64,000 bases of DNA from Gemmatimonadales bacterium (GTDB lineage Bacteria > Gemmatimonadota > Gemmatimonadetes > Gemmatimonadales > GWC2-71-9), in assembly GCA_035557715.1 (NCBI GenBank), contig DATMDQ010000016.1, positions 568-64,567 of the forward strand. The letters are read 5' to 3'. The notes beneath the pieces were generated by a model that searched no databases, was not told where the DNA came from, and saw nothing but the letters and a program-made list of their open reading frames with translations. The translations under genes were made by a program, and so were the position numbers. Each line of letters begins with the position of its first letter. Position 1 is the first letter of the stretch. This document shows, in pieces, positions 14,241 to 35,343 of the stretch.

Positions 14241-14260
14241 GAGGGAAACTCCGAAGTGAG

Positions 14261-14296
14261 AAAAGAAAAAAGCCCCGCCGATAGAGTCGGCGGGGC
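14261..14296 (-). terminator. Intrinsic terminator-like hairpin in the 5' leader of the PDT-DAHPS gene (candidate attenuator)
   Basis: Minus strand: GCCCCGCCGA-CUCUA-UCGGCGGGGC (perfect 10-bp stem, 14272-14296) followed by UUUUUUCUUUU (14261-14271). It ends ~20 nt before the ATG at 14240. No upstream same-strand gene is available for it to terminate. Confidence 0.6.
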
Positions 14297-14319
14297 GTCG
14301 ATCGTCCGGGCGGAAAGCG

Positions 14320-28955: not shown

Positions 28956-31037
28956 CTATGCCGGAACGCTCGGGCGCAAAGACTCCAGCGTCTCGCGCCA
29001 GGCGGCAGGCTCGTCCGCGGGCTGGGTGCAACTCGCGCCGACGCAGGCATAGCCCCTTGGGAATCGCCCCGCCGCCAGCATCCCGCTCAGCGCCTCCGGG
29101 AGAGGTCGGCTCCCCGCCTCGGCAGGTTTGATATTCTGGACCACTCGGCGCGCCGCGAAGCCCGCCAGCGCGGTCCGGTGCATGGCCTGGGTACTCGGAT
29201 CGGTGGAGTCCCCCACGACCACGAGGTGAGTGGCGGGATTGAGCTGCCAATCCACTGCCAGCAGATAGGCGGCCGCGTAGAGTCCCAGCTCCTGCGCTCG
29301 TCCCGCGAACGCCCGGACGAGCGCTCCACCCCGCTGCTTCCAGCGTGGATCGCCAGTGAGTTCGTGCAGCCGCGCAACGACGATGCCGGCAACGCCGTTG
29401 GGCGATGGGGTCGGTGTGTCCTGGACCGGTTTTGCCCTGGCGGGCAGCAAGCCCTCTTCTGCCGACCGGCTTCTGGCCGTATCGAACAGCCCGCCTTCGT
29501 TGCCGTCCCAGTAGTCGGACCAGACCCGATCCATGAGCCGCTCACTCCACTCGAGCCACTCACGCTTGCCCGTCGTCTCGTAGGCATCGAGTGCCCCCGC
29601 TGCCGTCTGCACCTGATCATCCAGTAGCCCCTGAAGACCACCGGAGGTGTGGGCTACTCTGTCGCCATCCGGGTTTTCCCGTCGGAGGCGCTCCAGCGTC
29701 AGCAGGCCATGGCTCCGGCCCCACTCGTCTCCCAGCACCGCTCCCGCCCGGAGCATAGCCGAGGCCATCATGGCGTTCCAGTTGGTATAGCGGGTGCGAT
29801 CGATGAACGGCGCGGTCCTCTGGGCCCGGGCCGCTCGCAGCTTGTCCTGCGCGGAGCGCAGGACTTTCTCGATGGTCTCCTGACTCTTACCGGTGCGCTG
29901 AGCCAGGCCTGGTACGGTCGCGGAGATGAAGAGCACGTTCTTGCCCGGATCATGGTGCATCTCCCCGGCGGTGCCGATGTCGTAGTACGCGGCGGCAACC
30001 TCAAGCTCGTCGGGACTCAAGACCGCGGCAGCCTCGTCGCGGGTCCAGGTGAAGTAGTCGCCGTCGTCGTCGAGACCCACATCGGCGTCCTGGCTTGCGG
30101 CGTAGCCTCCCTTTGGATCGGCCATCACCTCACGGACCCACCGGACGATCCCTCTGGCCACCTCGGCGTACTCCTCGTTGCCGAAGAGCGCGTGTGCGTC
30201 GAGGTAGGCCTTGAGCAGCTCCGAATTGTCGTAGGACATCTTTTCGAAGTGGGGGACGATCCAGCGGGCGTCGACGCTGTAGCGGTGAAAGCCCCCGGCC
30301 AACTGATCGTACATCCCTCCCCGCGCCATGCCTTGCAGGGTGCGGTCAATGACGGTGCGGATCTGCTCGGAGGGCTGGTCGTACCACCGGTGCAGCAGCA
30401 GCGTGAGGGCTCCCGGATGGGGAAATTTCGGTTGGCTCCCGAATCCGCCGTTTATCGAGTCGAACACCCGAACCATCTGGTCCACGGCCGCGTCCAGCAT
30501 TGGAGGGCCAACCTCGCCCGGCGCACTCTCATCCAGATGTTCCTCCAGCACCCGGCGGATGGCCTGCGCCTGGGCTTGCACCTGCTCGGGCCGGGCTCGG
30601 TACGCGTCGAGGACGCTGGCGAGCACCGACCGGAAGCCCGGCCGCCCATACTGGCCATCAGGCGGGAAATACGTGCCGCCGAAGAAGACCTCTCCCTTGG
30701 GGTTGAGAAACGCCGTCAGCGGCCACCCCCCCTGCTGGGTCAGGGTCTGGACGGCGCGCTGGTAACGCGCGTCCACATCAGGACGCTCGTCGCGATCCAC
30801 CTTGATGCAGACAAAATGCTCGTTCAGGAAGCCGGCGAGCTCGAGGTTCTCGTAGGACTCGCCGTCCATGACATGGCACCAGTGGCACCAGACGGCGCCG
30901 ATGTCGAGCAGCACCGGCTTGTCGGCCGTCTGGGCCGCGGCGAATGCCTCGGGACCCCAGGGGTACCAATGGATCGGCTGATGGGACGCCGATTGGAGAT
31001 AGGCCGAAGCTGAATCGGCCAAGCGGTTCATGGTCAT
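28956..31037 (-). CDS. Thioredoxin-domain protein (DUF255/YyaL family, N-terminal Trx fold + (alpha/alpha)6 domain)
   Basis: WYPWGPEAF...KPVLLDIGAVWCHWCHVM...FV.IKVDREERPD followed by a long alpha-helical domain. Confidence 0.85.
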   Translation of the reverse strand: MTMNRLADSASAYLQSASHQPIHWYPWGPEAFAAAQTADKPVLLDIGAVWCHWCHVMDGESYENLELAGFLNEHFVCIKVDRDERPDVDARYQRAVQTLTQQGGWPLTAFLNPKGEVFFGGTYFPPDGQYGRPGFRSVLASVLDAYRARPEQVQAQAQAIRRVLEEHLDESAPGEVGPPMLDAAVDQMVRVFDSINGGFGSQPKFPHPGALTLLLHRWYDQPSEQIRTVIDRTLQGMARGGMYDQLAGGFHRYSVDARWIVPHFEKMSYDNSELLKAYLDAHALFGNEEYAEVARGIVRWVREVMADPKGGYAASQDADVGLDDDGDYFTWTRDEAAAVLSPDELEVAAAYYDIGTAGEMHHDPGKNVLFISATVPGLAQRTGKSQETIEKVLRSAQDKLRAARAQRTAPFIDRTRYTNWNAMMASAMLRAGAVLGDEWGRSHGLLTLERLRRENPDGDRVAHTSGGLQGLLDDQVQTAAGALDAYETTGKREWLEWSERLMDRVWSDYWDGNEGGLFDTARSRSAEEGLLPARAKPVQDTPTPSPNGVAGIVVARLHELTGDPRWKQRGGALVRAFAGRAQELGLYAAAYLLAVDWQLNPATHLVVVGDSTDPSTQAMHRTALAGFAARRVVQNIKPAEAGSRPLPEALSGMLAAGRFPRGYACVGASCTQPADEPAAWRETLESLRPSVPA

Positions 31038-32357: not shown

Positions 32358-33884
32358 TCAAGACGGTGCAACCGGCCGGATCTCGATCCTTCGATTCGCG
32401 GCACGCCCCCGCGGCGTTGTATCCGGAGTCCTGGGCATGCTGGACCCGTATCCTCGGGCCACCATCTGCTGGAATGGGACGCCCTTGGCTACGAGGTAGT
32501 TTCGAACCGCCTCCGCCCTCAGGTTCGAGAGGTGCATGTTGTCGGCCGGCGTTCCACCCTCGTCGGTGTGGCCCCCGATCTCAACCCGGAGGTTCGGATT
32601 GGCAGTGAGGACCTTGGCGATAGAATCCAGCTCGATGTACGCCGCGGTCTGAAGACGAGCACTGCCGGTGCCGAACGTCACGCCCTCCAGCACCATTGCC
32701 TGGCTGCCCACCATAGCCGGACCGCTGGGCTGGTTTTGTTGGCGGGGTTGCTGTTGCCGGGCCGCCGAGGTGTCTGCTCGTGACGGCGCTGGTTGCCTGC
32801 CTTGCTGTCCTGCGGCACACCCCGCGGCGTTGACGCTGGCCCCGGTCGGTGTCCTGGGGCAGCGGTCCAGACCATCCAGCGCTCCGTCGCCGTCCTCGTC
32901 ACCCGGGCAACCCAGGGCATCCACGGTGGCGCCTTTGGGCGTATCTGAGCACCGGTCCAGCCCATCCGCGATGCGGTCGCCATCGCTGTCGCGTGGGCAG
33001 CCGTTCGAGTCCACCAGGACACCCGCGGGGGTGTCGGCACATTTATCGATCCCATCCGCGATGTTGTCGCCATCGCTGTCCTGGCTACAGCCGGCCGCGT
33101 CAACCAGGGCGCCCGTCCCGCTGTTGGGGCAGCGATCGACGCCGTTGGGTACGCCATCCCCATCGCTATCGGACGGGCAACCGCTTCCGTCTACCTGCGC
33201 GCCAGCCGGGGTTCCGGCACAGCGGTCCCGGTTATTCAGGATTCCGTCGCCATCGCTGTCCGGAATCGGCTTGCTACCGAGCATCAGGCTGACGCCGACA
33301 TTCACGCCGAAATTGGAGAACTTGATGGTAGTGTCTCTGGCGGGATTCGATCCGGGCACTGTGGTCGTTCCCCGATTGGGATTGATGACCCCCTCGGCCC
33401 GCAGCATGAGCGTCGGGGTCAACCCAATGCGAGCCCCCAGCCCGGCCACGAAGGTGGAGGTGGTGCCACAGAGCTTTCCTTGGAATTCCTGCGCCTGGCA
33501 ATCCGCGGTTGTGCTGGCGCCATATCGAACGCCGCCATAGCCGAGCTTTGCGTACCCCCAGGTCTTCGATCCGAAGAGCACGTTATACAGAACCGAAGCG
33601 GTTGTGGTTCTGACACTCACCGAGGAAGGCTTGGCGATCGACCCCTCCGCCTCGAGTGAGAAATTGAGGGGAAGCCACACCCCAATCCGCGCCAACCCCC
33701 CGGCTCCGCTGCCCAGATGGGTAGAGTCCGCGAACGACTGATACGCCCCCGAGGCACCTACCTCGAAGAGGTAACGCCGCTCCTGCGCCTCGGCGTGTGA
33801 GATGCACGAGAGTGTCAACACAAGAGCGCCCAGGTGCCTGAGCGCCCGGGCTAATCCCCCACCGGGGAACCGATAGGTTCGCAT
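32358..33884 (-). CDS. OmpA-family outer membrane protein with thrombospondin type-3 (Asp-rich Ca-binding) repeats
   Basis: N-terminal beta-barrel. About 8 repeats of D.DGDG..D..D.CP.TP.G. C-terminal OmpA domain (GHTD..G....N..LS..RA.AV..YL). Confidence 0.85.
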   Translation of the reverse strand: MRTYRFPGGGLARALRHLGALVLTLSCISHAEAQERRYLFEVGASGAYQSFADSTHLGSGAGGLARIGVWLPLNFSLEAEGSIAKPSSVSVRTTTASVLYNVLFGSKTWGYAKLGYGGVRYGASTTADCQAQEFQGKLCGTTSTFVAGLGARIGLTPTLMLRAEGVINPNRGTTTVPGSNPARDTTIKFSNFGVNVGVSLMLGSKPIPDSDGDGILNNRDRCAGTPAGAQVDGSGCPSDSDGDGVPNGVDRCPNSGTGALVDAAGCSQDSDGDNIADGIDKCADTPAGVLVDSNGCPRDSDGDRIADGLDRCSDTPKGATVDALGCPGDEDGDGALDGLDRCPRTPTGASVNAAGCAAGQQGRQPAPSRADTSAARQQQPRQQNQPSGPAMVGSQAMVLEGVTFGTGSARLQTAAYIELDSIAKVLTANPNLRVEIGGHTDEGGTPADNMHLSNLRAEAVRNYLVAKGVPFQQMVARGYGSSMPRTPDTTPRGRAANRRIEIRPVAPS

Positions 33885-34023
33885 GGGTCAAATAGATACG
33901 CGAGGAGGGTGGGGCTGACAAGGAGCGGCATCACAGCGGGACGCGTCCCCTTGGCATCCCCCCTCGGCGCCGCTACGATTCGCGGCGGTACGTGCCCCTA
34001 TCTCGTGAAAAGGGTACCCAATA

Positions 34024-34260
34024 ATGCAAGTCACCATTCAGTACTGTGTGGTCTGAAACTACCAGCCCCGAGCCGCCAGTTTGGCGGCTGAGCTGAAGCA
34101 AGCCTACCCCGACGCTGAAGTCAGGTTTATCGAATCCTCGGGTGGTGTCTTTGAAGTGGCGGTAGATGGCCGGCCGGTGTTTTCCAAGAAGGCATCCCGG
34201 CGACATGCCGAGCCCGGAGAGGTTCTCAAGGCGGTCCAGCAGTTGAGAGGTGGTAAGTGA
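34024..34260 (+). CDS. selW: SelW-like (Rdx family) selenoprotein; TGA at 34054-34056 read as selenocysteine
   Basis: ATG 34024. Translation: MQVTIQYCVV-U-NYQPRAASLAAELKQAYPDAEVRFIESSGGVFEVAVDGRPVFSKKASRRHAEPGEVLKAVQQLRGGK. CxxU redox motif, a SECIS-like hairpin just downstream, and stop at 34258-34260, 3 nt before the pfk ATG. Absent from the ORF track because of the in-frame TGA. Confidence 0.8.
34063..34095 (+). promoter_or_regulatory. Bacterial SECIS-like stem-loop
   Basis: Outer stem CAGC (34063-66) / GCTG (34092-95). Upper perfect 7-bp stem AGCCGCC (34071-77) / GGCGGCT (34083-89). Loop AGUUU, with its G-U ~25 nt from the UGA. Confidence 0.6.
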
Positions 34261-34263
34261 CCC

Positions 34264-35343
34264 ATGCGCATTGCCATCTCCACTGGCGGGGGTGACGCCC
34301 CCGGTCTGAACGCGGTGATCCGCGCCGTGGTCCTTTCGGCTCATAACCGCGGATGGCGGTCCTACGGCATCCAGCGTGGCTACGAAGGCCTTCTCAGCTT
34401 CAACGGTGTCGTTCCCCTGGGGCCTGCTGAGGTTCGGGGCATCACCCACCTTGGCGGGACCATCCTGGGCACTACCAACCGCGGCAACCCGTTTCGCTAT
34501 GTGACTCGGGACGCGGAAGGCAACGAGCACGAGACCGATCGCTCCGACGACATGGTGGCCGCGTTTCAGGCCAGCGGGTTCGACGCCCTGGTCTCGATCG
34601 GCGGAGACGGCAGCCTGCAGATCTCCTACGAACTCTGGAAGAAGGGTCTTCCAGTCGTCTGCGTCCCCAAGACCATCGACAACGACGTCAGCGGCACTCA
34701 GCGCACCTTCGGATTCGACACCGCCGTAAGCACCGCCACGGAAGCGATAGACCGGCTGCATTCCACGGCGGAGAGCCATGACCGGGTCATGGTGGTCGAG
34801 CTCATGGGCCGGTATGCGGGCTGGATTGCGCTGTACAGCGGCCTGTCCGGCAGCGCCGACGTCATCCTGTTGCCCGAGATCCCCTTCGACATCGAGAAGG
34901 TCTGCGCCAAGATCCGGGCCCGTGAGGCCGCCGGGCGGCATTTCAGTATCGTGGTGGTGGCGGAGGGTGCGCGGTCAAGGGATGGGGCCATCGAGCTGCT
35001 CGAACGCCGCGGCGCAGGAACGGTGGATCGCCTGGGCGGAATCGGGAGCAAGGTGGCCCGGGCGATCGAGCATGCCACCGGCAAGGAAACCCGGACCCTG
35101 GTGCTGGGGCACCTTCAGCGCGGCGGTTCGCCCACCACCTATGATCGGCTTCTCGCGCTCCGGTTTGGGGCAGCCGCGGTGCGGGCGATCGCGGAGGGTG
35201 CGTTCGGGATGATGGTCGGGCTCAAGGGACCCGGCATCGAGCAGGTGCCGCTGGAGGAGGTCGTCGGCAAATCGAAGAATGTGCCCCTCGACTCGGACAC
35301 GATTGCCACTGCGCGCGAGTTAGGGATCAGTTTAGGGGATTAG
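34264..35343 (+). CDS. pfkA: 6-phosphofructokinase (PfkA family; phosphoryl donor not resolvable)
   Basis: MRIAISTGGGDAPGLNAVIR...SIGGDGS...PKTIDNDV...MGR.AG. Gly at the E. coli-104 position and Lys at the 124 position. Confidence 0.9.
   Translation: MRIAISTGGGDAPGLNAVIRAVVLSAHNRGWRSYGIQRGYEGLLSFNGVVPLGPAEVRGITHLGGTILGTTNRGNPFRYVTRDAEGNEHETDRSDDMVAAFQASGFDALVSIGGDGSLQISYELWKKGLPVVCVPKTIDNDVSGTQRTFGFDTAVSTATEAIDRLHSTAESHDRVMVVELMGRYAGWIALYSGLSGSADVILLPEIPFDIEKVCAKIRAREAAGRHFSIVVVAEGARSRDGAIELLERRGAGTVDRLGGIGSKVARAIEHATGKETRTLVLGHLQRGGSPTTYDRLLALRFGAAAVRAIAEGAFGMMVGLKGPGIEQVPLEEVVGKSKNVPLDSDTIATARELGISLGD

What the first reader, a model, noticed from the sequence alone, without database searches (positions are those of the whole stretch)
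34024..34260. Unlisted SelW/Rdx-like selenoprotein gene: in-frame UGA in a CxxU motif plus a SECIS-like hairpin
No ORF is listed in this frame because TGA at 34054-34056 interrupts it. Reading through gives 78 codons, MQVTIQYCVV[U]NYQPRAASLAAELKQAYPDAEVRFIESSGGVFEVAVDGRPVFSKKASRRHAEPGEVLKAVQQLRGGK. The TGA sits where Rdx-family (SelW/SelT/SelH) thioredoxin-like proteins carry the CxxC/CxxU redox centre. The SGGVFEV.VDG..VFSKK...EPGEV block resembles bacterial SelW-like proteins. A hairpin begins 7 nt after the TGA: 7-bp perfect upper stem at 34071-77/34083-89, AGUUU loop, and a G-U about 25 nt from the UGA. That is roughly where bacterial SelB-binding SECIS elements sit. The gene ends 3 nt before the pfk ATG, so it fills an otherwise empty gap.
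Basis: partly seen in the sequence, partly recalled or inferred. Interest (0 to 1): 0.8.

Follow-up and report, generated by a model that had tools for sequence, protein, structure and literature searches.

The report
Unannotated SelW-like selenoprotein gene before pfk
This is very probably a real but ordinary selenoprotein gene: a small SelW-like redox protein whose in-frame TGA most likely encodes selenocysteine, so gene callers truncate it, in a soil Gemmatimonadales bacterium.

Summary
Window 34024-34260 (+) reads MQVTIQYCVV[TGA]NYQ...GGK. With U replaced by C it passes Pfam Rdx (76.6 bits) and NCBIfam NF041051 'SelT/SelW/SelH family (seleno)protein' (99.6 bits, cutoff 88).

- **TGA conservation:** the TGA is kept at this column in 59 of 60 metagenome loci and 70 of 71 named genomes, mostly Gemmatimonadales MAGs.
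- **Selection:** codons 2-10 upstream are under purifying selection (pN/pS 0.21-0.36).
- **Hairpin:** the hairpin at 34071-34089 meets all four published bacterial SECIS criteria. Its upper stem is about 94% paired in two independent alignments, with compensatory changes at synonymous sites.
- **Operon:** a conserved promoter (33951-33979) precedes the ATG, and pfk follows 3 nt after the stop. This junction is conserved across Gemmatimonadales only.

Limits: selA, selB, selD and tRNA-Sec are not in the window or in about 1.4 Mb of related loci, and the source genome could not be searched. In this window alone the hairpin is only marginally better (p about 0.06) than the peptide's codons would give.

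SelW-like CxxU selenoproteins have been known in bacteria since 2005, so this is a new member of a known kind. Public annotation of its closest relatives is truncated to 55-59 aa.

The parts
33951..33979 (+). Promoter-like site: -35 TTGGCA (33951-56), 17-nt spacer, -10 TACGAT (33974-79)
   Evidence: Consensus scan. cTTGGCAt-16 nt-TACGAT(tcgcggcgg) is kept at fixed spacing in about 27 Gemmatimonadales MAG loci while the spacer and 5'UTR drift. Function is inferred, not shown.
34024..34260 (+). SelW-like (Rdx family) selenoprotein gene, 78 codons plus stop; product MQVTIQYCVVUNYQ...GGK
   Evidence: Pfam PF10262 76.6 bits. NCBIfam NF041051 99.6 bits against cutoff 88, and TIGR02174 68.9 bits.
34045..34047 (+). 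Cys8 codon (TGT) of the C-x-x-U redox motif
   Evidence: TGT or TGC in every related locus.
34054..34056 (+). In-frame TGA, inferred selenocysteine codon (residue 11)
   Evidence: TGA at the same column in 59 of 60 metagenome loci and 70 of 71 genome loci. Aligned to Cys in P0052, L054, L132 and 2fa8.
34071..34089 (+). SECIS-like upper stem-loop: stem 34071-77 / 34083-89, apical loop AGUUU 34078-82, invariant G at 34079 and U at 34080
   Evidence: Fold. Hairpin alone -13.6 kcal/mol. 94.4% and 93.8% of cells paired in A1 and A2 against 15-51% in slid controls, with compensatory pairs. Meets the bSECIS criteria of PMC13188914.
34063..34095 (+). Extended hairpin including a 4-bp lower stem (34063-66 / 34092-95); the lower stem is weakly supported
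   Evidence: MFE structure. The lower helix is paired in only 61.6% of cells across relatives.
34081..34260 (+). Truncated 59-aa TTG ORF, the part that gene callers annotate in relatives; it is not the real gene start
   Evidence: It matches only Rdx profile positions 19-73 at 43.2 bits.
34264..35343 (+). Downstream 6-phosphofructokinase gene, apparently co-transcribed
   Evidence: TIGR02483 PFK_mixed 436.4 bits. No terminator-like site between the two genes. The Rdx-PFK junction is 0-4 nt in most Gemmatimonadales loci.

Best explanation
Window 34024-34260 encodes a 78-residue SelW-like (Rdx family) thioredoxin-fold protein with a Cys8-Val-Val-Sec11 redox centre. Transcription probably starts just downstream of the conserved TTGGCA/TACGAT promoter and runs through Rdx into pfk. 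Translation starts at ATG 34024. At UGA 34054 the elongation factor SelB, carrying Sec-tRNA(Sec), is recruited by the stem-loop at 34071-34089, whose apical loop presents an invariant G-U 21 nt after the UGA. Selenocysteine is then inserted instead of termination. The product is expected to cycle between a selenol/thiol and a selenenylsulfide form as a small redox protein; its substrate is unknown. Shown here: the sequence features, family membership, fold (on a 61%-identical Cys proxy), TGA conservation, purifying selection on both sides of the TGA, covariation in the hairpin, promoter conservation and pfk linkage. Inferred: SelB binding, actual Sec insertion, presence of the Sec machinery in this genome, redox activity and co-transcription.
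For: - Family: Pfam Rdx 76.6 bits over profile positions 1-73. NF041051 99.6 bits against cutoff 88, and TIGR02174 68.9 bits. The truncated ORF scores only 43.2 bits over positions 19-73.
- TGA conservation: 59 of 60 loci and 70 of 71 loci, spanning 42-94% identity and several phyla, including the cultured Melghirimyces thermohalophilus and two Corallococcus species.
- Database proteins: of the 120 best protein hits, 114 are 55-59-aa truncations, 4 print W at the column, 1 has Cys and 1 has Arg. The W is a TGA in the DNA.
- Selection: pN/pS upstream of the TGA is 0.21-0.36 against 0.43-0.63 in the gene body. pS falls to 0.38 over the hairpin against 0.62-0.69 elsewhere.
- Hairpin: the upper stem is 94.4% (A1) and 93.8% (A2) paired. 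Pair 21-39 is G-C 23-27, A-U 20-24, C-G 2-3, and both bases are synonymous third positions. Pairs 24-36 and 27-33 are also compensatory, and 0 of 500 shuffles reach the observed covariation score.
- All four bSECIS criteria from PMC13188914 are met.
- TGA is an ordinary stop for 18 of 40 long ORFs in the window, and for this gene itself.
- Fold: the proxy model has pLDDT 88.7 with CxxC between beta1 and alpha1, and TM 0.85-0.91 to solved SelW-related proteins.
- The promoter is conserved upstream of ATG 34024.
Against: - No selA, selB, selD or tRNA-Sec was found in the 64-kb window or in about 1.4 Mb of related loci. The source genome was not among the 71 genome hits (best 94%), so the machinery is unverified.
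- No accessible paper documents Sec decoding in Gemmatimonadota.
- In this window alone the hairpin is only marginally beyond what the peptide RAASLAAE gives: synonymous resampling reaches the native MFE in 6.4% of trials and keeps all 7 pairs in 7.5%.
- Distant Cys homologues in GC-rich DNA also fold to -17 to -22 kcal/mol, so stability alone does not discriminate.
- No Rfam family matches.
- The locus scans were seeded with peptides that include SLAAELKQ, which the hairpin encodes, so the sample is biased towards hairpin-bearing forms.
- A recurrent A.C mismatch occurs at pair 25-35 in 16 of 66 sequences.
- The shuffle control does not correct for relatedness between sequences.
Confidence: 0.88

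Rival explanations
1. The TGA is a genuine stop. The functional product is the 59-aa protein from TTG 34081, as public annotation has it, or there is no functional product at all.
For: Gene callers list only the 59-aa ORF. More than 100 database clusters are annotated that way. No Sec machinery was found in the window.
Against: The 59-aa ORF lacks beta1 and the CxxC/U centre, matching only Rdx profile positions 19-73. The 10 codons before the TGA are under purifying selection and add about 33 bits of family score. The conserved promoter sits in front of ATG 34024. The TTG lies inside the hairpin loop/stem.
Confidence: 0.03
2. The TGA is a sequencing or assembly error, or a recent inactivating mutation of a TGC/TGT Cys codon, making this a pseudogene or an ordinary Cys-type Rdx protein.
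For: Single-base variants at this codon do exist: CGA in L139 and TGC in the L138 paralogue.
Against: TGA is found at this column in 129 of 131 independent assemblies from many samples and phyla, and identically in three other assemblies of the same sequence (L062-L064). Purifying selection continues downstream of the TGA.
Confidence: 0.02
3. The UGA is decoded, but not as Sec. Possible routes are Trp or Cys insertion by near-cognate or suppressor tRNA, or a reassigned code, with the hairpin only a by-product of the conserved RAASLAAE peptide.
For: The peptide alone gives a comparable hairpin in about 6-7% of synonymous resamples. Some database entries print W at the column. The Sec machinery is not demonstrated.
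Against: TGA ends 18 of 40 long ORFs in the window and this gene itself, so there is no code reassignment. The W entries are TGA, and they also print the terminal stop as W. Covariation occurs at synonymous third positions, which peptide conservation cannot explain. The column is the redox Cys position, where only Cys or Sec is functional in this family. The Cys paralogue in L138 shows hairpin decay once the TGA is lost.
Confidence: 0.04

Closest known systems
Bacterial SelW-like selenoproteins (Rdx family PF10262; NCBIfam NF041051 and TIGR02174), as described in the Sargasso Sea and bacterial selenoproteome surveys (PMC1088965, PMC1794560)
   Same: About 75-80 aa with an N-terminal CxxU motif, a thioredoxin-like fold, a SECIS hairpin inside the coding region just after the UGA with a G in a small apical loop, and mostly Sec forms with few Cys homologues. 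It scores above the curated cutoffs.
   Different: Nothing in kind. The lineage is different (soil Gemmatimonadales), and the gene sits immediately upstream of pfk behind a conserved promoter. I found no paper describing that arrangement.
Cys-type bacterial Rdx proteins with solved structures (A. tumefaciens Atu0228 2fa8, P. fluorescens 2obk, V. cholerae 2p0g, S. avermitilis 3dex)
   Same: The fold matches at TM 0.85-0.91 and rmsd 1.2-1.5 A for the proxy model. Sequence E-value is 6e-9 to 2fa8, with CxxC aligned to CxxU.
   Different: They carry Cys instead of Sec, are about 100-108 aa with extra termini, and have no UGA or SECIS.
Mammalian selenoprotein W (mouse SelW, 2npb) and MIEN1 (2ljk)
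   Same: Same family and fold (TM 0.74-0.78), with the CxxU motif in the same place.
   Different: The eukaryotic SECIS lies in the 3'UTR and uses SBP2 and eEFSec (established knowledge). Sequence identity is only 25-32%.
E. coli fdhF-type bacterial SECIS bound by SelB (bSECIS consensus model, PMC13188914 Fig. 2A)
   Same: A hairpin directly downstream of the UGA inside the ORF. It has a 5-nt loop with G-U in the A-G-U-U-U (N1-G-[G|U]-N-N2) pattern, a 7-bp upper stem, 21-nt spacing and MFE below -7.5 kcal/mol.
   Different: No bulged U in the upper stem, which from memory is a feature of fdhF. No Rfam model matches. SelB binding was not tested.

Membership tests
Rdx / SelT-SelW-SelH family (Pfam PF10262; NCBIfam TIGR02174, NF041051) | Profile HMM score above the curated cutoff over the full domain | tested here: met
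   PF10262 76.6 bits against 22.6, positions 1-73 of 74. NF041051 99.6 against 88, and TIGR02174 68.9 against 34.2, with U written as C.
Rdx / SelT-SelW-SelH family | CxxC or CxxU motif in the loop between beta1 and alpha1 | tested here: met
   C8-V-V-U11. In the proxy model, C9/C12 lie between strand 3-9 and helix 15-28. Aligned to CTQC of 2fa8.
Rdx / SelT-SelW-SelH family | Thioredoxin-like beta1-alpha1-beta2-beta3-beta4-alpha2 fold | tested here: met
   AlphaFold model of the natural Cys homologue P0052 (61% identical), pLDDT 88.7. TM 0.85-0.91 to 2fa8, 2obk, 2oka, 3dex, 2ojl and 2p0g. The window protein itself could not be submitted.
Rdx / SelT-SelW-SelH family | Thiol/selenol redox activity | not testable with these tools
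   Needs biochemistry. The function of bacterial SelW-like proteins is itself described as unclear (PMC1088965).
Bacterial selenoprotein gene (SelB/SECIS-dependent UGA recoding) | In-frame UGA aligned with Cys in homologues and conserved in orthologues | tested here: met
   59 of 60 and 70 of 71 loci carry TGA. Cys at the column in L054, L132, P0052 and 2fa8.
Bacterial selenoprotein gene | Coding conservation on both sides of the UGA | tested here: met
   pN/pS is 0.21-0.36 upstream and 0.09-0.63 in the downstream segments.
Bacterial selenoprotein gene | bSECIS model: 3-9 nt apical loop, 4-16 bp upper stem, G in the first two loop positions, 16-37 nt from the UGA, MFE no higher than -7.5 kcal/mol (PMC13188914) | tested here: met
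   Loop AGUUU (5 nt), 7-bp stem, G at loop position 2 followed by U, 21-nt spacing, and -13.6 kcal/mol (hairpin) or -20.3 kcal/mol (52 nt).
Bacterial selenoprotein gene | Hairpin maintained by compensatory change across orthologues | tested here: met
   The upper stem is 94.4% and 93.8% paired, and 4-5 of 8 pairs have changes on both sides. 0 of 500 shuffles reach the covariation score, and slid controls give 15-51%. The lower stem is not supported (61.6%). For this window alone the test is inconclusive (p about 0.06).
Bacterial selenoprotein gene | selA, selB, selD and tRNA-Sec present in the same genome | not testable with these tools
   Absent from the window and from about 1.4 Mb of related loci.
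Bacterial selenoprotein gene | Selenium actually incorporated at residue 11 | not testable with these tools
   Needs 75Se labelling or mass spectrometry.
Rfam SECIS families | Covariance-model match at or near the gathering score | tested here: not met
   No hit at gathering thresholds across the window. No SECIS family appears even at E up to 10 for 33950-34300. To my knowledge, Rfam's bacterial SECIS models are gene- and lineage-specific, so this does not count against SECIS function.

The most novel reading that the evidence does not exclude
In Gemmatimonadales the Sec-UGA/SECIS of the SelW-like gene may be more than a coding feature. The gene sits behind a single conserved promoter and 0-4 nt (in most loci) upstream of pfk. 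Failure to decode the UGA when selenium is scarce would leave about 200 nt untranslated, which could reduce pfk expression through polarity. That would make the small ORF a selenium- or redox-responsive leader for glycolysis. Alternatively, the selenoprotein could be a dedicated redox partner of this phosphofructokinase.
Probability: 0.07. Interest if true: 0.55.

Novelty: new member of a known kind. Interest (0 to 1): 0.25.

Why it matters
It corrects the annotation. The closest relatives in public databases, more than 100 protein clusters from JGI, ENA and NCBI, are called as 55-59-aa fragments that lack the catalytic CxxU centre. It also suggests that soil Gemmatimonadales decode selenocysteine, a phylum for which I found no published selenoproteome. 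The conserved promoter-Rdx(Sec)-pfk unit gives a concrete hypothesis linking selenium or redox status to glycolysis, but that link is speculative. The gene family, the recoding mechanism and the SECIS type are all textbook.

Tried and rejected
- Rfam at gathering thresholds on the whole window, and at E up to 10 on 33950-34300: no SECIS family, only chance hits.
- ARAGORN on the window and on 95 related loci: no tRNA-Sec.
- tblastn of E. coli SelA, SelB and SelD against the window and all loci: no hits.
- Genome scan to identify the source genome: best hit 94%, so it was not found.
- Literature and supplements for Gemmatimonadota or Gemmatimonas with selenocysteine: nothing relevant.
A natural Cys homologue was used instead.
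- Scan of the window for a second selenoprotein gene: four other TGA-plus-hairpin sites, all with out-of-frame-looking peptides, so rejected.
- Overlapping ORFs 33973-34941 (-), 33909-34091 (+), 34104-34283 (-) and 33888-34037 (-): no Pfam match, so treated as shadow ORFs.
- RNAalifold on A1 recovered only 5 pairs of the upper stem at weak energy. I relied on explicit pair counts instead.
- The 4-bp lower stem predicted by the MFE fold is not conserved.
- Looking for the 'W' database proteins among loci already held found none. This was resolved by fetching L140.

Full report
**Observation.** ATG is at 34024, TGT (Cys8) at 34045-47, TGA at 34054-56 and the stop TGA at 34258-60. The pfk ATG at 34264 follows three bases later. 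The read-through peptide is MQVTIQYCVV*NYQPRAASLAAELKQAYPDAEVRFIESSGGVFEVAVDGRPVFSKKASRRHAEPGEVLKAVQQLRGGK. The only mechanical ORF in this frame is the 59-aa TTG ORF at 34081-34260. The hairpin is a perfect 7-bp stem at 34071-77/34083-89 with loop AGUUU. The 52-nt segment folds at -20.3 kcal/mol, z = -2.96.

**Family.** With U written as C, the protein matches Pfam Rdx (PF10262) at 76.6 bits over profile positions 1-73. It matches NCBIfam NF041051 'SelT/SelW/SelH family (seleno)protein' at 99.6 bits against a cutoff of 88, and TIGR02174 'CXXU_selWTH' at 68.9 bits. The truncated 59-aa ORF matches only profile positions 19-73 at 43.2 bits, so the residues before and around the TGA add about 33 bits of family signal. 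The nearest solved relatives are the Cys-type SelW-related proteins 2fa8, 2ojl, 3dex, 2oka, 2obk and 2p0g, plus MIEN1. The window protein could not be submitted for structure prediction. A natural Cys homologue, P0052 (61% identical and also sitting upstream of a PFK gene), gave a confident model (pLDDT 88.7) with topology beta1-alpha1-beta2-beta3-beta4-alpha2 and the CxxC between beta1 and alpha1. That model superposes on the SelW-related crystal structures at TM 0.85-0.91 and rmsd 1.2-1.5 A, and on mouse SelW at TM 0.78.

**Is the TGA conserved?**
- A protein search returned 428 relatives. Of the best 120, 114 are 55-59-aa fragments corresponding to the truncated ORF, many named 'selT/selW/selH-like putative selenoprotein' by JGI or 'SelT/SelW/SelH family protein [Gemmatimonadales bacterium]' by NCBI. 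Four 'full-length' entries print W at the Sec column, one has Cys and one has Arg.
- The W is a TGA in the DNA, and the terminal stop is printed as W too.
- At the DNA level, 59 of 60 metagenome loci and 70 of 71 loci from named genomes carry TGA at exactly this column. These span 42-94% protein identity.
- The genomes are mostly Gemmatimonadales MAGs. They also include Krumholzibacteriota, Thermoanaerobaculales, Desulfobulbaceae, Planctomycetota, Eisenbacteria and Acidobacteriota, and the cultured Melghirimyces thermohalophilus and two Corallococcus species. The two exceptions (L054 and Arhodomonas L132) have TGC.
- Caveat: both scans used seed peptides that include SLAAELKQ, which the hairpin encodes, so hairpin-bearing forms are favoured. 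The protein search works against that bias, because Cys forms are the only ones callable at full length and would score best, yet only one appeared among the 120 best hits.

**Selection.** Across 39 sequences, pN/pS for codons 2-10 upstream of the TGA is 0.36 over all pairs and 0.21 against the window. The gene body gives 0.63 and 0.43. Synonymous divergence falls over the hairpin codons (pS 0.38 against 0.62-0.69), as expected if an RNA structure constrains silent sites.

**SECIS.** The published bacterial model (PMC13188914 Fig. 2A) has four requirements:
- a 3-9 nt apical loop with a 4-16 bp upper stem;
- a G in the first two loop positions, usually as N1-G-[G|U]-N-N2 with N1 and N2 pairable;
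- 16-37 nt between the UGA and the loop;
- MFE no higher than -7.5 kcal/mol.

The window has loop A-G-U-U-U, a 7-bp stem, 21-nt spacing, and -13.6 kcal/mol for the hairpin or -20.3 kcal/mol for the 52-nt segment. All four are met. In alignment A1 (58 distinct sequences) the upper stem is 94.4% paired, against 15-45% when the 3' partners are slid. Pair 21-39 splits G-C 23, A-U 20, C-G 2, and both bases are synonymous third positions of Arg CGN and Ala GCN. Pair 27-33 splits C-G 49 and G-C 7 (Ala GCC to GCG with Leu UUG to CUC). Pair 24-36 also shows double changes. The loop G is invariant. An independent alignment A2 (66 sequences from named genomes, none identical to A1 rows apart from the window itself) reproduces this: 93.8% paired, five of eight pairs with changes on both sides, and 0 of 500 shuffles reaching the covariation score. 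The 4-bp lower stem is not conserved (61.6% paired).

**Cautions.**
- Resampling synonymous codons for the window's own peptide gives an equally stable fold in 6.4% of trials and keeps all seven stem pairs in 7.5%. The peptide RAASLAAE nearly encodes the stem, so the hairpin in this window alone is not decisive.
- Distant Cys homologues in similarly GC-rich DNA also fold to -17 to -22 kcal/mol.
- No Rfam family matches.
- The shuffle control ignores phylogenetic relatedness. The argument rests on covariation at silent sites in two data sets.
- Two natural controls help. In L138 a Sec-form Rdx is followed by a Cys paralogue whose hairpin has acquired a C.A mismatch (-15.5 against -20.3 kcal/mol). 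L139 carries CGA with an intact hairpin on a 1-kb contig, a one-base variant of TGA.

**Code and machinery.** TGA terminates 18 of 40 long ORFs in the window, and this gene itself, so TGA is not reassigned. No tRNA-Sec and no SelA, SelB or SelD homologue is present in the window or in about 1.4 Mb of related loci. The source genome was not among the genome hits (best 94%). Identical copies of the pfk protein occur only in metagenome assemblies. I found no paper or supplement reporting Sec use in Gemmatimonadota. The presence of the machinery in this organism is therefore inferred from the long-term maintenance of TGA plus SECIS. It is not shown.

**Context.**
- The gene lies between a divergently transcribed OmpA-family gene (32358-33884, minus strand) and pfk (34264-35343; TIGR02483 at 436 bits), which is followed by an S9 peptidase.
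- A sigma-70-like site, TTGGCA-17 nt-TACGAT at 33951-33979, is conserved at fixed spacing in about 27 Gemmatimonadales MAGs while the surrounding bases drift. This places ATG 34024 at the head of the first cistron.
- No terminator-like site separates Rdx from pfk.
- The Rdx-pfk junction is 0-4 nt in most Gemmatimonadales loci and is absent outside the phylum.
- Overlapping ORFs on both strands have no family match.
- No other credible selenoprotein candidate exists in the window.

**Comparison with what is known.** SelW-like CxxU proteins were the most abundant selenoprotein family in the Sargasso Sea survey, with bacterial-type SECIS elements carrying a conserved loop G (PMC1088965). They are listed among the families with very few Cys homologues in Sec-using bacteria (PMC1794560). 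NCBI maintains a curated '(seleno)protein' model that this sequence passes. This is therefore a new member of a known kind. The finding is correct and useful for annotation, but it would not surprise a specialist. The lineage-specific promoter-Rdx(Sec)-pfk unit is the only feature that might repay further work.

**Verdict.** This is very probably a genuine SelW-like selenoprotein gene (confidence 0.88). The rivals (true stop, error or pseudogene, non-Sec decoding) together hold about 0.1. Interest is 0.25.

Noticed in passing
window 33951-33988; L068-L099 upstream of the Rdx ATG: A promoter-like block, cTTGGCAt-16 nt-TACGAT followed by tcgcggcgg, is conserved at fixed spacing in about 27 Gemmatimonadales MAGs. 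It lies 29-45 nt upstream of the ATG, while the spacer and 5'UTR vary.
   Followed up: partly
L138 (ENA ERZ27257243 k141_1222465) 80-818: Tandem Rdx paralogues lie upstream of PFK. A Sec form (CGM-TGA-GYQSRAAGLAA...) is followed by a Cys form (CTAC) whose relic hairpin has a C.A mismatch. This looks like a recent Sec-to-Cys conversion after duplication.
   Followed up: partly
L139 (GCA_033612675.1 JAWMQY010417899.1) 698-922: An orthologue with CGA (Arg) at the Sec column and an intact SECIS-like hairpin, on a 1-kb contig. It is either a sequencing error or an inactivating TGA-to-CGA change.
   Followed up: no
window 34245-34253: A Shine-Dalgarno-like GAGAGGTGG for pfk lies inside the last codons of the Rdx gene (L-R-G-G), 10 nt before the pfk ATG. 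The conserved C-terminal LRGG may therefore be under dual constraint.
   Followed up: no
window about 14270-14300 (+): A strong 8-bp GC-rich hairpin, GCCCCGCCGAUAGAGUCGGCGGGGC (-22.7 kcal/mol), follows a TGA at 14257. The read-through frame looks non-coding, so this is probably a terminator or other structure and not a SECIS.
   Followed up: partly
window 28956-31037 (-): A 693-aa protein has an N-terminal thioredoxin-like domain (Pfam Thioredox_DsbH/Thioredoxin_7 on the identical L062 gene). It has weak NCBIfam hits to DsbH and to the selenoprotein TsoB, both far below cutoff. It is a second thiol-redox gene about 3 kb upstream.
   Followed up: no
Database proteins P0001-P0120; L140 766-1002: Public annotation of this gene in relatives is inconsistent. 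More than 100 clusters are truncated to 55-59 aa. A few JGI calls span the full gene but print both the internal TGA and the terminal stop as W.
   Followed up: yes
A2 columns 25 and 35 (window 34075 and 34085): 16 of 66 orthologues carry an A.C mismatch in the middle of the upper stem, where Ala to Thr gives GCCACC. It recurs across lineages, so it is either tolerated or forms an A+.C wobble.
   Followed up: no
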